Assembly: GCF_044647545.1 (NCBI RefSeq) | Contig: NZ_CP172818.1 | DNA: 64,000 nt | Strand: one strand, 5' to 3' | Source of the DNA: Escherichia coli | GTDB lineage: Bacteria; Pseudomonadota; Gammaproteobacteria; Enterobacterales; Enterobacteriaceae | In this document: in pieces, positions 18,516-37,815 of the stretch | How the letters are laid out: every line of letters starts with the position of its first letter | How positions within the stretch are numbered: the stretch's first letter is position 1 | Notes under the pieces: model-generated | The model's input: only the letters and a program-made list of their open reading frames with translations | Told to the model about the DNA's origin: nothing | The model's database searches: none | Made by a program: the position numbers and the translations under genes

Positions 18516-18602
18516 CAAATTTAGCAGAAGCCCTGCGCTGGCGCACGCTCCAGCTTCACCGCGCGATAGCACTCGATAGGCGGTCGCACTTACCAGGCCA
18601 GC

Positions 18603-23423: not shown

Positions 23424-25968
<2,545 letters not shown>

Positions 25969-31791: not shown

Positions 31792-32481
31792 TTAAAAACG
31801 GTGACCCGCTTCCAGCGGCACCGCTTCTTCACCAGCCTTAAACACATAAGTGGTGTTCGGGCCACCCAGCGTAGCGTGACCTTTACTCACCGTGATCCAG
31901 TTACCTTCCGGTAGACCAATAATTGTGAGTTCTGGCGCGACGACCAGCAGTTCGCGAATACGCTGCTCACGCGTTTCACCTTTATGGCCTTCCGGCAGCG
32001 CGTTGGTGAAGTGCGGGTTGATTTGCAACGGGAACAGATTCAGCGCATCGAAACCTTGCGGATCGACAATCGGCATATCGTTGGTGGTACGAATGGTTGG
32101 GCAAGCAAGGTTAGCGCCTGCGCTCCAGCCAATATACAGCGCGCCACGTTTCACCACGTCAGTAATTGGTGGCAGCAGCCCGCGCTCGCGGCACTGTTTC
32201 AGCAACTGGAAAGTATTACCGCCGCCGACAATCACGATCTCAGCATTTTCAATCGCGGCAACGGGATCGACAACGCTATGAATACCGGTGACAGAAACAC
32301 CCAGCGGAGCGAGAACCGCAGCCGTTTTCGCTGTGTAATCATCCCAGGTCTGCGTTACGCCAGCGAAAGGAATAAATACCGCTGAACGGCGACCCTGCAA
32401 CTGTTCAGCAATCAGCGGCAGCGCGTGTTCCAGCCAGGCTTTACCCGGCAGCGTCGAGTTACTCAATAAAAGCAGTTCCAT
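31792..32481 (-). CDS. pepE: Dipeptidase E (alpha-aspartyl dipeptidase)
   Basis: 229-aa [45 protein letters not shown]... Confidence 0.95.
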
Positions 32482-32609
32482 TACTTCTCCGGTTAGTAAG
32501 AAATCACGGGAGCCATGCTACCACTGTGATTTTAACCGCTTACTGACATGGCTCACGATGTTGCGCATTGCTTCTGGAAAGGATTTCCAGACGCAGGTCA
32601 CGAATTTCC

Positions 32610-35600
32610 ATAAAACCAGACTGTTTTTTCATAAACACTCATTTACGATGACCCCCATCTCCCGAAAATCAGACAAACCACCATTACCGATAATCCCTAA
32701 ACAAACACGAAAATCACCATACCGTTAATTTTTTTTTACAACGTACCATCACACTCAAACCACCCACAATCCACAAACTCGAAATGTCTTACTCATATAT
32801 CACCACCCAGCGTTTGTAAACCATAACCAGTTGACGATTCCATTTTCACCATACCCCATTACAAACACCCAAACGAGCCCTCGTCATTTTTCACAAATTA
32901 CCCCATATCGCTACGATATTCACCCCTTTACGAAACCCATTCACCCATACCATTTCATTTCAACGTACTGCATTGAAAATAAAAAAACACACCATATTCC
33001 AAATCCAAATCGCCACCCGTAACCCACGTTCCCCAACCATGACCCAACACCTCCAACGGTCCCATCAGCGACTTTATCCGTTAATTACCGTCATCAATTT
33101 CCCGCGTTCTCGCGCCTCTTCCATCGCATACGCCGATGACCCCACATACCCGTGTATTAAAACACCAGTTCCCTACCCCAACCTGATCCTCTTTTAATTA
33201 AATCGTTTGATCGATCATTCGTACAAAAACCCACCCGTGAATACTTCAAATTAAAGATGCCTTTCATACGCAAAACATGCTCACCAACCTCTTAATTTTT
33301 CTCTGTTCCATGATCTCCGTTAATCATCAATTCAACGTGATATTTCTGATGTTTCACTTTACCCACTGTGATTTAACTGATGTAACACCATGATCACGCA
33401 CGCCACCGAACCCACAGACTAACAGTACCACCTCAGAAACCGAGAAAAAGAAAGCATCAAATATTTCACCCCATCATCGAACACCATCGTAACCGACCAC
33501 CACGATAAAACCCCACAATCTCATCCAGGGTCACAAATCGAATCGCTCACATATTTTTATCATACCGCTACGAACAGCGAACAATCATCCGAACCAACGC
33601 CAATCTCACCCAACGCGAACATGCAGAATACAATCGAAACGTGTTCTTCCGCTGCTTTATCCGCCGCGTGCTGAAACTACGTGATTACCAAACACCGTCA
33701 CACCTCCTCCCACCAACAACGCGATCGATTCCTCGATGCTTTCTACCAACGATAACCAAATCGGAGATTATGCCGATCAGAATCCAAATCCCCCGCCGAG
33801 TTCATCCACCAACTATCAATTCCACGTACCACCACATAATTCGTTTTTAAATCACCAAATTAAACCAATCACCTACACAATTAACGACGATGATCTGAAA
33901 TTCATCCACACTCCCATTCCGCAATACAAAAAAAAAATATACAATAATTTTATACTTATTTCCATGATTTTCACCTTTTAATTCTCATCCCTCCTTTAAA
34001 CATATGTACACACGCTATTATTTAATTTGATTAATGTTCGTTTATTTTTCGATAATATTGATTAGATCTACCTACGAGCGTAAACCATATACCCAAGATT
34101 ATTTAATCATGAAACGTTAATAACTCATCTAATGAAATCTTTTTAACTGTTTCTTACCAAGTCACCATACCCCAATATTCATACCTATTTTTACCCCTCG
34201 AACCATTCTAACATCTTTCGATGAAAAGATAAAAAAGTTTCGTCCTATATTCGGGTTTGATAATCCGCGACGGCTTTTTCATATTACCACGTTAACCTTC
34301 ATTCCCGTCGCACCTACGCAATAATGTCCGGCGAATTCATCGTTATAAATTCGTCATTGCAGATAATAATGCGTTCGTTACCACTTTAACCAACGGTATA
34401 CCTCCGTGATCACGTCATCAATCCACGTAATGTTCATCAAAATCCTCCTCCGCTGTTCCACCTGTCTCCAACGACGCAGATTTCTTTCGATTTCTCCGTT
34501 CACAGAAATCCATCAATATTCATGCTTCCTGTTATCAACCATTCACCCACGCAGAGAAAGCCGCTGATTACCCCAACGAGATTCGCATCCAACATCGCTC
34601 CCATTCCACGGGCTCCGCACTGTAAACCACCAATCACCATCATCTTGATTTAATCTTACGTACTTTTCCACTTTCTACGATGTCTCCCGTTCTCGCCGCA
34701 CAAATTCAACCCTCGACCTCATCCGTATATCTAACTGATTCCACATCCAACTAATTTCCATCGCAAAAAATGCATTACCATAAAACCTGATCGTTTTTCC
34801 GCCCGCAATGTTATTTACTCCGTATAACCCGTTCAACACAGATAACAAACAAAATCACCATTCTCTAATCTTCCCCCCCAAAAATCGTTTTTTATACCTT
34901 CACGCACTGCTCGACGTGATATTCCGTCCACCCACCTTCTTCATATTCCCGTCCATCCTGTTTTTTCCAGAATCCCCCGCGATACCGACCACACGATACC
35001 GTCTTACCCATTCTTTCGACCAGACGATGAAGCTATTACGCACTTTATCGCGTACACTCTCCTTCTACCTTCCACCGACTTTCTAGAAACATTCACAATC
35101 ACCATGTGTTGTTCTACGTACCGTCCCCACCCTCGACATCAGAAAAAGTTTTTTATATACCATTTTTTCGAATCACTTCGTTATTCATACTCCCCACCTT
35201 TCTCATCACCACAACCGAAATTACCCGTTATTACCAACTCGATCACAAAATGATAATTTCTCTATATATTTACCTCTTCGCTTAGATTTCCCAAAATGAT
35301 ACCTTTACGATTCATATTTCCACCCACTAATATCACATCTTACATCCTTTCTAATAATTCACCACAACCAACCAATCCGACCATACAATAATATTTTACC
35401 AAATTTAAATTTCATAAACAATATTTTAGATAATAGACCCGTAATTTTTATATAAACATCGAAATTTTTATTCATAAATTCACTTTTATAAAAATTAATA
35501 TATTTTCCACCATGCAAACAATCTTATTTTTCTTCACCACAAGCCAAATGGAATATCTTTTTAATTTATTCATTCGATAAGATGTTTTTTCTCATATTCG

Positions 35601-36305
35601 TTTCAACCACCGTAATATCAAAAAACCGAGCAAATACGCCAGCAACCCGGGCATTCATCTCACTCTCTTCACCACCATAAAACCATCCATACCCTCCGAA
35701 TCCTACCAATTCCCACCACGACATCCAATTACCCATACAAATTTTTAAACCTAACTCATATCCCAACGAATTAATTTATCCACAACCGGAAAATCCCGAA
35801 TCGATTCCCCTTTCAACTCCCCTGTATTAATTTTTACATAACGCTTTCGATTTACCACGTCCGCCAATAATACCAGATTAACTCCCGATTCCCCCCCGCA
35901 ATTTTCAACATCCTCACCCCCCAGGAAAAACCAACAAACCCATCCACAACGACCACATCCCCTTAACCCCACACCCATTATCTCTTCATCCTCATCATTT
36001 CCCGACACACACAACTCTTTCAGCCAAACTTTTCTTCATCCCCACCAAGATTTTCTTATCATATACGATACAATTCCTCGACCCCTTTTAACAACTACGG
36101 TAAAACCACCCCGATCCCCTCATACCCAAAATCAACCACAATCAAACAATCTCACTTTTTCCATCCCTCTTTCCACATGCAAAACCTTTCCACCACGAAA
36201 ACACAGACTTTCAAACGATTTTTCACTCAAGAAAACGCTTTCTCCACATTTTTTCCAACACACACACACATTCAATATTGATTATCTTATTGCCACAAAA
36301 TTATC
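32610..36305. other. Anomalous ~3.7 kb G-depleted, ORF-free segment of unknown origin between pepE and rluF
   Basis: Hand counts on the top strand give G about 8–10% inside the segment against about 22% in the flanks, with A and C elevated. The longest ORF in any frame is 92 codons. No recognisable gene, RNA, repeat array or mobility function. Boundaries are placed by where the G content shifts. Confidence 0.8.
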
Positions 36306-36422
36306 TATTTCCGGATACTTCTGTGATAAAAGCGGGCAGATCACATTAATTTCACGTTGCCTCATAACCCTTTTTTATCAACCCAAGAGGTACGGTATAT
36401 TCCGCGTTTTACAGGAGAATTT

Positions 36423-37358
36423 ATGCTGCCCGACTCATCAGTCCGTTTAAATAAATACATCAGCGAAAGCGGAATTTGCTCACGCCGCGAAGCGGATCGC
36501 TATATCGAGCAAGGCAATGTGTTCCTTAATGGCAAGCGAGCCACCATTGGCGATCAGGTGAAACCCGGCGACGTTGTGAAAGTAAACGGTCAGTTGATTG
36601 AGCCTCGGGAAGCCGAAGATTTGGTACTTATCGCCCTGAACAAGCCCGTCGGTATTGTCAGCACCACCGAAGATGGCGAGCGCGATAACATTGTCGATTT
36701 CGTTAACCACAGCAAACGCGTGTTCCCGATTGGCCGCCTGGATAAAGATTCCCAGGGGCTGATTTTCCTCACCAATCACGGCGATCTGGTGAATAAGATC
36801 CTCCGTGCGGGTAACGATCATGAGAAAGAGTATCTGGTGACGGTTGATAAACCGATTACCGATGAATTTATTCGTGGTATGGGGGCGGGAGTACCGATCC
36901 TCGGGACGGTAACTAAAAAGTGCAAAGTCAAAAAAGAAGCACCGTTTGTCTTCCGCATTACCCTGGTGCAGGGGCTGAACCGTCAGATTCGTCGCATGTG
37001 CGAGCACTTTGGTTACGAAGTGAAAAAGCTGGAACGTACGCGCATTATGAACGTCAGCTTAAGCGGCATTCCGCTGGGTGAGTGGCGCGATTTAACCGAC
37101 GATGAGTTAATCGATCTCTTTAAGCTCATTGAAAATTCCTCTTCCGAGGCAAAACCTAAAGCGAAGGCCAAACCGAAAACGGTAGGCATCAAACGTCCAG
37201 TCGTTAAGATGGAAAAAACGGTGGAAAAAGGCGGTCGCCCGGCGTCCAACGGTAAGCGTTTTACCTCGCCGGGGCGTAAAAAGAAGGGGGATCAGCGCCT
37301 GCCGCGCGTCGACGTATTTGCTGACCAGCTAAATGACGCCTCAGGATCCGGTTTATAA
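36423..37358 (+). CDS. rluF: 23S rRNA pseudouridine synthase RluF
   Basis: [49 protein letters not shown]..., with S4 domain, pseudouridine synthase core and Lys/Ala-rich C-terminal tail. Confidence 0.9.
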
Positions 37359-37564: not shown

Positions 37565-37815
37565 GATGGTGCCCTCAGTGAGCCAGAGAGTTCAGTGTAC
37601 GGGAATTCGTTTGCGAGCAGAACTGATAATATTCATTTTGCCTTCTCTTAACTATTTATCTCTTTCGATAATTAGCGATAAATACAGATAAAAATTTAAC
37701 GCAAATTATTATCCGATAAAGACGCTGGTTAACAGAGTACAGGCTCGTTTATTGATGAGCATAGTGACAAGAAAATCAATACGGCCCGAAATATAGCTTC
37801 CAGGCCATACAGTAT

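What the first reader, a model, noticed from the sequence alone, without database searches (positions are those of the whole stretch)
32610..36305. The anomalous segment has no hallmarks of a mobile element and splits the divergent pepE/rluF promoter region
Seen in sequence: I found no terminal inverted repeats, no clear target-site duplication, no adjacent tRNA or tmRNA, and no integrase, transposase or recombinase ORF at either edge. The only edge similarity is weak (TTTCCATAAAACC on the left versus TTGCCACAAAATT on the right). Native-looking sequence remains on both sides: about 130 bp upstream of the pepE start (32482–32610) and about 120 bp upstream of the rluF start (36305–36422). The proximal promoters are probably intact, but any shared upstream regulatory sites are now 3.7 kb apart.
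Basis: partly seen in the sequence, partly recalled or inferred. Interest (0 to 1): 0.5.

Follow-up and report, generated by a model that had tools for sequence, protein, structure and literature searches.

The report
Corrupted sorbose operon copy, assembly artefact
The "anomalous insert" between pepE and rluF is the ordinary L-sorbose operon that half of all E. coli carry at this spot, here stripped of about 70% of its G bases by what looks like a faulty reference-guided genome assembly, so it is almost certainly a database error and not biology.

Summary
The segment has no terminal repeats, target duplication, tRNA or recombinase, and no ORF longer than 92 aa. G makes up 9% of the + strand.

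The segment is not a foreign insert. It aligns colinearly with the sor (L-sorbose) operon, which 2721 of 5426 complete E. coli genomes carry between pepE and rluF. Against strain ECONIH1, window 32608-36354 is the same sequence with bases removed: 794 G, 142 T, 125 C and 13 A are missing, with only 12 substitutions. A clean 2004-bp gap removes the shikimate-dehydrogenase gene and most of sorE.

Outside the segment the window has 2 mismatches to ECONIH1 in about 59 kb of aligned flank. Its only other differences are nine small scars. Every scar lies where ECONIH1 differs structurally from K-12.

Both sor junctions mix K-12 and ECONIH1 bases nucleotide by nucleotide. ECONIH1's 18-kb prophage is replaced by 99 nt identical to K-12. 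No other complete genome has these junction sequences.

Best explanation: reads of an ECONIH1-like strain were assembled on a K-12-like backbone, and the consensus of a large insertion failed. The record is real: the aberrant AceK and PsiE proteins are WP_400165098.1 and WP_400165100.1, on a 4,499,902-bp contig.

Verdict: not a real feature; low interest.

The parts
31792..32481 (-). pepE, intact (229 aa)
   Evidence: ORF. Window 32000-32577 is 100% identical to strain FDAARGOS_497 (L001).
32482..32577 (.). Native pepE upstream region, 96 nt, identical to sor+ relatives
   Evidence: Identity to L001 and ECONIH1 ends exactly at 32577.
32578..32632 (-). Remnant of the first ~19 codons of sorE, joined directly to the pepE upstream region. 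2004 bp are missing (shikimate-DH gene plus most of sorE). Positions 32578-32607 are a nucleotide-level chimera of the K-12 intergenic sequence and ECONIH1 sorE.
   Evidence: Semi-global alignment places it at L001 3783-3839. Three-way alignment shows K-12-specific bases GGAAAG, GATTT and CGAATT within sorE sequence.
32608..36354 (-). Deletion-only corrupted copy of sorM-sorA-sorB-sorF-sorD-sorC plus the sorC-rluF spacer. About 69% of + strand G is missing.
   Evidence: Over the whole alignment, window 32578-36420 against L001 3783-8668: 3800 matches; 794 G, 142 T, 125 C and 13 A deleted; 12 substitutions; 31 insertions. Over this core (3747 nt): 3711 matches, 12 mismatches and 24 insertions, against about 2690, 65 and 990 for shuffles.
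32669..33311 (-). sorM (PTS IID) remnant, 643 nt from 825
   Evidence: Coordinate map; annotation.
33320..33965 (-). sorA (PTS IIC) remnant, 646 nt from 798
34022..34437 (-). sorB (PTS IIB) remnant, 416 nt from 495
34437..34781 (-). sorF (PTS IIA) remnant, 345 nt from 408
34788..35415 (-). sorD (SDR oxidoreductase) remnant, 628 nt from 807
35468..36164 (-). sorC (sugar-binding regulator) remnant, 697 nt from 948
36165..36422 (.). sorC-rluF spacer, about 256 nt from 347. Dropouts continue to 36354. Positions 36355-36385 are a K-12/ECONIH1 chimera. Only about the last 37 nt are clean.
   Evidence: The best full-length match in any of 5426 genomes is 87.1%.
36423..37358 (+). rluF with its stop codon lost (CGTTA replaced by G at 37290). 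The product is 311 aa instead of 290 and runs antisense into yjbD.
   Evidence: The exact 311-aa product is on record only on one 4,499,902-bp NCBI contig.
37716..37814 (.). 99 nt identical to K-12, standing exactly where ECONIH1 carries a 17,946-bp prophage. This looks like leakage of reference sequence.
   Evidence: ECONIH1 identity stops at 37715 and resumes at 37815. The block is absent from the ECONIH1 88-kb composite. No genome matches the 181-nt junction full-length above 93.4%.

Best explanation
The segment is not a biological insert. It is the strain's own L-sorbose operon at its normal site between pepE and rluF, mis-rendered in the deposited assembly.

The most likely history is this. 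Reads from an ST648-type strain that is essentially clonal with ECONIH1 were turned into a chromosome using a K-12-like genome as backbone, by reference-guided consensus or polishing. Ordinary and even strongly diverged stretches were corrected to the true strain sequence. Every place where the strain has a large insertion or deletion relative to K-12 was reconstructed badly:
- K-12-only genes were cut out, leaving ragged junctions.
- The 18-kb prophage was lost, and K-12's 99 nt were left in its place.
- The first 2 kb of the sor island were lost.
- The remaining 4.8 kb were written from poorly supported insertion columns, probably one or a few reads of one orientation. Low-confidence bases were dropped, most of them G in A/T-G-C/T contexts.

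What is shown: the deletion-only relation to the sor operon, the coincidence of all scars with K-12 structural differences, the chimeric junctions, and the K-12-identical block.

What is inferred: the pipeline itself, and the reason why G in particular was dropped.
For: 1. The segment is colinear with the sor operon and differs almost only by deletions. G>- is 794 of 1074 deleted bases, against 12 substitutions. Shuffled controls are far worse.
2. G loss depends on context but is stochastic. G is kept in 77% of CGA and 66% of CGT contexts, but in 8% of AGC, 5% of AGT and 14% of TGC. This resembles a signal or quality effect rather than evolution.
3. The flanks are near-identical to ECONIH1: 1 mismatch in 18,530 nt and 0 mismatches in 26,194 nt. 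There has been no time for natural decay.
4. All nine indel-type differences from ECONIH1 in the window lie on ECONIH1-versus-K-12 structural differences, and none lies elsewhere.
5. Window 37716-37814 is exactly K-12 sequence and is bounded exactly by ECONIH1's prophage junctions.
6. Both sor junctions mix K-12-specific and ECONIH1-specific bases.
7. None of 5426 complete genomes has these junction sequences, and none has the G-poor segment; the best hit is 81%.
8. The aberrant AceK, PsiE and RluF products exist only on one NCBI contig of 4,499,902 bp. That is smaller than K-12 and about 0.8 Mb smaller than ECONIH1, as expected if strain-specific islands were lost.
Against: The strand-specific, G-specific nature of the dropout is not explained by any pipeline I can name. 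A consensus drawn from reads of both orientations should lose C as often as G.

One sor insertion (2004 bp) vanished completely, while the adjacent one (4.8 kb) survived in corrupted form.

A diverged block in zraS, about 65% identical between K-12 and ECONIH1 with a 21-nt indel, is rendered perfectly as ECONIH1. The method therefore was not a naive mapping consensus.

The K-12 allele of the 99-nt block is common in E. coli, so that point alone is not proof.

I could not see the record's assembly method or its reads.
Confidence: 0.85

Rival explanations
1. Artefact of a different kind. A de novo hybrid assembly left gaps between short-read contigs, and these were bridged with uncorrected sequence from a single noisy long read. 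No K-12 backbone was involved.
For: Scars sit at places where short-read contigs often break: the end of an rrn operon, REP-containing spacers and terminator hairpins. A single read would explain the strand-specific dropout.
Against: A raw long read would carry several percent substitutions and insertions; here these are 0.3% and 0.8%. This model does not explain the K-12-identical 99 nt replacing the prophage, the K-12-specific bases inside both sor junctions, or the exact match of every scar to a K-12 structural difference.
Confidence: 0.08
2. Real DNA. A strand-specific, transcription-coupled process acted on the non-template (coding) strand of the sor operon, for example cytosine deamination followed by uracil excision and deletion-prone bypass, natural or engineered. 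It removed C from the coding strand, which appears as G on the + strand.
For: The loss is confined to one transcription unit. It hits the coding-strand C's. Its context preference loosely resembles the WRCH/DGYW hot spot of AID-type deaminases: G followed by C or T and not preceded by C is lost most often. This is my comparison from general knowledge, not a test.
Against: Deaminases leave transitions, and only 2 G>A changes are seen against 794 G deletions. T, C and multi-base GC-rich chunks are also deleted. Similar scars occur at eight other unrelated loci. The junctions are K-12 chimeras. No known process deletes about 70% of one base over 4.8 kb while leaving 60 kb of flanks untouched.
Confidence: 0.02
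3. Natural pseudogenisation. This would be an old, decaying sor operon eroded by deletion-biased mutation.
For: K-12 itself retains only a ~30-nt trace of sorE at this site, so loss of sor does occur in nature. No ORF survives in the segment.
Against: There are about 1070 deletions against 12 substitutions. The deletions are specific to one base and one strand. The flanking 60 kb differ from a sor+ relative by 2 SNPs. No intermediate or similar allele exists in 5426 genomes.
Confidence: 0.02
4. A foreign, horizontally acquired non-coding insert of unknown origin that split the pepE/rluF promoter region. This is the reading implied by the first reader.
For: Odd composition and no ORFs.
Against: The segment aligns end to end with the resident sor operon of the closest relative. 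There are no mobile-element hallmarks.
Confidence: 0.01

Closest known systems
L-sorbose utilisation operon (sorC-sorD-sorF-sorB-sorA-sorM-sorE, followed by a shikimate-5-dehydrogenase-like gene) of E. coli and Klebsiella
   Same: It occupies the same chromosomal site between pepE and rluF, with the same gene order and orientation. The retained bases are 99.7% identical to the ECONIH1/FDAARGOS_497 operon. The pathway is described in PMC13410766.
   Different: All six remaining genes are destroyed by hundreds of single-base deletions. sorE is cut to 19 codons, and the shikimate-DH-like gene is absent.
Reference bias or reference-guided assembly chimeras (backbone sequence surviving in a consensus; strain-specific insertions lost or garbled)
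   Same: Errors are confined to structural differences from a putative K-12-like backbone. Backbone-identical sequence stands where the lineage has a prophage. The chromosome is undersized at 4.50 Mb.
   Different: A several-kb insertion rendered as a one-strand, G-specific dropout is not a textbook symptom. The pipeline is unknown.
Strand-specific cytidine-deaminase hypermutation (AID/APOBEC-type; T7-RNAP-deaminase targeted mutagenesis systems)
   Same: One-strand bias, restriction to one transcription unit, and a sequence-context preference.
   Different: Those processes give C>T/G>A transitions. Here 794 G are deleted and only 2 are changed to A.
Genomic island or insertion element
   Same: It is a strain-variable block present in about half of E. 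coli genomes at a fixed site.
   Different: It has no integrase, tRNA, inverted repeats or target duplication.

Membership tests
sor (L-sorbose) operon locus | Located between pepE and rluF (yjbC) | tested here: met
   2721 of 5426 complete genomes carry the sor genes at this site.
sor (L-sorbose) operon locus | Colinear nucleotide homology to sorM, sorA, sorB, sorF, sorD and sorC | tested here: met
   3711 of 3747 nt match in order. Shuffled controls give about 2690.
sor (L-sorbose) operon locus | Intact reading frames for the PTS components, the two enzymes and the regulator | tested here: not met
   the longest ORF in the segment is 92 aa; every gene is shortened by 15-26%.
sor (L-sorbose) operon locus | sorE and the downstream shikimate-dehydrogenase-like gene are present | tested here: not met
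   L001 1779-3782 (2004 bp) is absent.
Mobile element or integrated island | Terminal inverted repeats or flanking direct repeats (target-site duplication) | tested here: not met
   only short chance matches, none at the edges.
Mobile element or integrated island | Integrase, transposase or recombinase gene, or an adjacent tRNA/tmRNA | tested here: not met
Reference-guided assembly artefact | Anomalies confined to sites where the sample's lineage differs structurally from the backbone | tested here: met
   all 9 indel loci lie on ECONIH1-versus-K-12 structural differences. There are no indels elsewhere in about 59 kb of aligned flank.
Reference-guided assembly artefact | Backbone-identical sequence where the lineage has different content | tested here: met
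   99 nt exactly as in K-12, bounded by ECONIH1's prophage junctions. K-12 bases inside both sor junctions.
Reference-guided assembly artefact | Junction sequences found in no independently assembled genome | tested here: met
   the best full-length identities are 93.4% and 87.1% among 5426 genomes.
Reference-guided assembly artefact | Raw reads and the assembly method contradict the deposited sequence | not testable with these tools
   The record is known only through WP_400165098.1 and WP_400165100.1 and its contig length of 4,499,902 bp. It could not be retrieved.
Deaminase-type hypermutation | Transitions (G>A on the affected strand) dominate | tested here: not met
   2 G>A against 794 G deletions.
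Deaminase-type hypermutation | Strand bias and hot-spot context | tested here: inconclusive
   One search shows strand bias and a DGY-like preference. Searches show that T, C and multi-base GC-rich chunks are also lost.

The most novel reading that the evidence does not exclude
The G-poor sequence is physically present in the strain. An unknown strand-specific process, possibly coupled to transcription, would then have excised about 70% of the cytosines from the coding strand of one operon as single-base deletions, without leaving transitions.
Probability: 0.02. Interest if true: 0.9.

Novelty: not a real feature. Interest (0 to 1): 0.08.

Why it matters
As biology it does not matter. There is no new element, and no real re-wiring of the pepE and rluF promoters.

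It matters as a data-quality warning. A chromosome that is in NCBI, with RefSeq protein accessions for the artefactual AceK, PsiE and RluF variants, appears to be a K-12-scaffolded chimera. It lacks strain-specific islands and carries broken stop codons and a garbled operon.

Such records can seed false pseudogene calls, false gene-absence calls (sor, prophage) and spurious novel protein clusters in pangenome work.

Two signatures could be used to flag similar records: one-strand, single-base dropout with almost no substitutions, and scars that coincide with reference structural variants.

Tried and rejected
- Bisulfite-like or deaminase G>A conversion was my first idea, from the excess of CpG among the surviving G's. 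I rejected it because the differences are deletions, not transitions.
- A deterministic text or k-mer filter was rejected. Identical 5-mers are sometimes kept and sometimes lost.
- Noise from a long-read-only assembly was rejected. There are no indels in 18.5 kb and in 26 kb of flank outside the scar sites.
- Natural alleles at the small scars were checked against ECONIH1, AR_0077 and K-12. None shares them.
- Prophage excision as the source of the 99-nt block was rejected. The block is absent from the ECONIH1 region, prophage included.
- Attempts to retrieve the source record failed. An exact 40-mer scan of genome contigs gave 0 hits. The look-up of encoding contigs had nothing on record for the aberrant AceK or RluF. 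A literature search for the accession numbers and contig length returned only unrelated papers.
- My first global alignment scattered spurious matches across the missing 2 kb. I replaced it with a semi-global alignment.

Full report
**What is in the window**

Window 32578-36385 lies between pepE (31792-32481, minus strand) and rluF (ATG at 36423). It is compositionally extreme:
- The stretch 32610-36305 holds 333 G in 3696 nt (9%), against 27% in the rest of the window.
- GC skew is -0.33 to -0.80 in the bins lying within the segment.
- No ORF is longer than 92 aa.

- There is no tRNA or tmRNA within 28-41 kb.
- There are no terminal inverted repeats or flanking direct repeats.
- There is no recombinase ORF.
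- Both quoted edge strings are present.

**What the segment is**

Megablast against 5426 complete E. coli genomes shows that 2721 of them carry, at this same pepE-rluF site, the L-sorbose (sor) operon. The best identity to the window is only 81%.

In strain FDAARGOS_497 (L001), which is identical to ECONIH1 here, the order is: pepE | shikimate-5-dehydrogenase-like gene | sorE | PTS IID, IIC, IIB, IIA | SDR oxidoreductase | sugar-binding regulator | rluF. The pathway of this operon is described in PMC13410766.

A global alignment of window 32578-36420 to L001 3783-8668 gives:

| Class | Count |
|---|---|
| Matches | 3800 |
| G deleted | 794 |
| T deleted | 142 |
| C deleted | 125 |
| A deleted | 13 |
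| Insertions | 31 |
| Substitutions | 12 |

The window sequence is therefore, to within 1%, a subsequence of the sor operon. This is not an effect of cheap gaps. The real core segment gives 3711 matches, 12 mismatches and 24 insertions out of 3747 nt. Shuffled versions give about 2690, 65 and 990.

On the left, the pepE upstream region (identical to L001 up to 32577) is joined directly to codon ~19 of sorE. That is a clean 2004-bp gap. Every remaining gene is shortened by 15-26% and has no reading frame.

**Character of the base loss**

- About 69% of + strand G's are gone.
- The loss depends on context. G is kept in 77% of CGA and 66% of CGT contexts, but in 8% of AGC, 5% of AGT and 14% of TGC.
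- The loss is not deterministic. The same 5-mer is sometimes kept and sometimes lost.
- T losses peak near the right end and C losses around sorD-sorC. Short GC-rich chunks such as TCGCG or TCG also disappear.
- Transitions are essentially absent, with only 2 G>A. This rules out deamination-type or bisulfite-type conversion.

**The rest of the window shows this is not evolution**

Outside the segment the window is almost clonal with ECONIH1:
- 1 mismatch and 0 gaps in 18,530 nt.
- 1 mismatch in the next 14 kb.
- 0 mismatches in 26,194 nt.

The only other differences are small, mostly deletion-type scars:

| Window position | What is affected |
|---|---|
| 18531-18595 | The terminator hairpin after the 5S rRNA is lost |
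| 23366 | CA insertion inside a REP-type spacer |
| 25119-25135 | The aceK stop codon is lost, giving a 588-aa product |
| 37290 | The rluF stop codon is lost, giving a 311-aa product |
| 41340 | One T missing just after the pgi stop codon |
| 45915-45918 | Five bases missing in the spacer upstream of psiE |
| 46453-46458 | The psiE stop codon is lost, giving a 145-aa product |

I then listed all structural differences between ECONIH1 and K-12 MG1655 over the same 88 kb. Every scar, the sor segment and the missing prophage fall on one of these differences. No indel lies anywhere else.

Two ECONIH1-versus-K-12 differences are rendered cleanly as ECONIH1. One is a 4-nt indel. The other is a block in zraS that is about 65% identical between the two strains and carries a 21-nt indel. 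The underlying reads were therefore good. Only large insertions and deletions relative to K-12 were mishandled.

**Backbone leakage**

ECONIH1 carries a 17,946-bp prophage between yjbD and lysC. In the window, ECONIH1 identity stops at 37715 and resumes at 37815, which are exactly the two prophage junctions. The 99 nt in between are identical to K-12 and occur nowhere in the ECONIH1 region. No complete genome matches this 181-nt junction full-length above 93.4%.

Both sor junctions are chimeras at the nucleotide level:
- Left, 32578-32607: ECONIH1 sorE sequence with the K-12-specific bases GGAAAG, GATTT and CGAATT.
- Right, 36355-36385: K-12's TTTTTTATCAACCCAA embedded between ECONIH1's CATAACCC and AAGAGG.

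The best full-length match to the right junction in any genome is 87.1%.

**Provenance**

The three aberrant proteins are on record exactly. Each occurs on a single NCBI contig of 4,499,902 bp. Two have RefSeq accessions: WP_400165098.1 (AceK) and WP_400165100.1 (PsiE). The window therefore comes from a real public record. That record's chromosome is smaller than K-12's and about 0.8 Mb smaller than its clonal relative.

In each of the three large searches, 5425 of 5426 genomes matched, even for a query that contained an rRNA operon. I take this to mean that the source genome is in the collection but is withheld from its own searches. This is an inference.

**Explanation**

The best-supported reading is a consensus or assembly failure. 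Reads of an ECONIH1-like ST648-type strain were laid on a K-12-like backbone:
- K-12-only segments were cut out raggedly.
- The prophage and the first 2 kb of the sor island were lost.
- The remaining 4.8-kb insertion was written from poorly supported columns with low-confidence bases omitted.

The very low substitution rate among retained bases, together with a context-dependent, one-strand dropout, would fit an insertion taken from one or a few reads of one orientation after a quality or gap-majority filter. That step is inferred, not shown, and I cannot name the software.

Two points remain unexplained:
- Why G in particular was lost.
- Why one insertion vanished while its neighbour survived in corrupted form.

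**Rivals**

- A gap bridged by a raw long read in a de novo hybrid assembly would explain the strand bias. It would not explain the K-12 bases, and raw reads are not this free of substitutions.
- A real strand-specific base-deleting process is attractive only because of its loose AID-like context. It is contradicted by the absence of transitions, the scars at eight unrelated loci and the chimeric junctions.
- Natural pseudogene decay is excluded by about 1070 deletions against 12 substitutions in a background that is 2 SNPs from a sor+ relative.
- A foreign insert is excluded by the alignment itself.

The description was accurate, and the proposed check, aligning the junctions to reference genomes, was the right one. 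That check shows three things:
- The site is the native sor locus.
- The boundaries are 32578, with G loss from 32608, and about 36385, rather than 32610 and 36305.
- The rluF-proximal region is not intact.

Regulatory consequences for pepE and rluF should not be drawn from this record.

**Verdict**

This is not a real feature. Interest is low, except as a flag for database curation.

Noticed in passing
window 25119-25135: The aceK-iclR spacer is shortened from 37 to 17 nt and the aceK stop codon is lost. The resulting 588-aa AceK is on record as WP_400165098.1. K-12 carries arpA (2.5 kb) at this spot and ECONIH1 does not.
   Followed up: yes
window 37290: The stop codon of rluF is destroyed (CGTTA replaced by G). 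RluF becomes 311 aa and overlaps yjbD in antisense. K-12 has a 122-nt REP-type insertion here.
   Followed up: yes
window 46453-46458, 45915-45918 and 41340: Small deletions at the psiE stop codon (giving the 145-aa PsiE, WP_400165100.1), in the spacer upstream of psiE, and just after the pgi stop codon. Each lies at a K-12 versus ECONIH1 indel: xylE, and 112-nt and 143-nt spacers.
   Followed up: yes
window 18531-18595: The sequence just after the 5S rRNA gene is garbled: 65 nt stand in place of 100 nt, and the rrn terminator hairpin GGCCATCCGTCAGGATGGCC is lost. K-12 has yjaA here and ECONIH1 does not.
   Followed up: partly
window 37716-37814: 99 nt identical to K-12 stand exactly where ECONIH1 has a 17.9-kb tailed-phage remnant (tail, baseplate, holin and Mor genes). 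The prophage is absent from the window.
   Followed up: yes
window 23366: A two-base insertion (CA) inside a REP-like element between aceA and aceK. It again lies at a K-12 versus ECONIH1 repeat-copy difference.
   Followed up: partly
window 54665-54962: An AT-rich stretch with less than 10% C at the 5' end of the SopA-family (yjbI-like) gene. It is identical to ECONIH1, so it is natural sequence and unrelated to the artefact.
   Followed up: partly
K-12 L005 16225-16265 versus L001 3783-3815: The pepE-rluF spacer of K-12 still contains a ~30-nt trace of the 5' end of sorE (AAAGTGATTTGAGCAGGTAACGAATT against AAAGGTTTCCAGACGCAGGTCACGTTT). This suggests that sor-less strains lost the operon by deletion, rather than sor+ strains gaining it at an empty site.
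   Followed up: partly
searches of E. coli genomes: Exactly one of the 5426 genomes never matches, even for a query containing a full rRNA operon. This is probably the window's own source genome being withheld.
   Followed up: no
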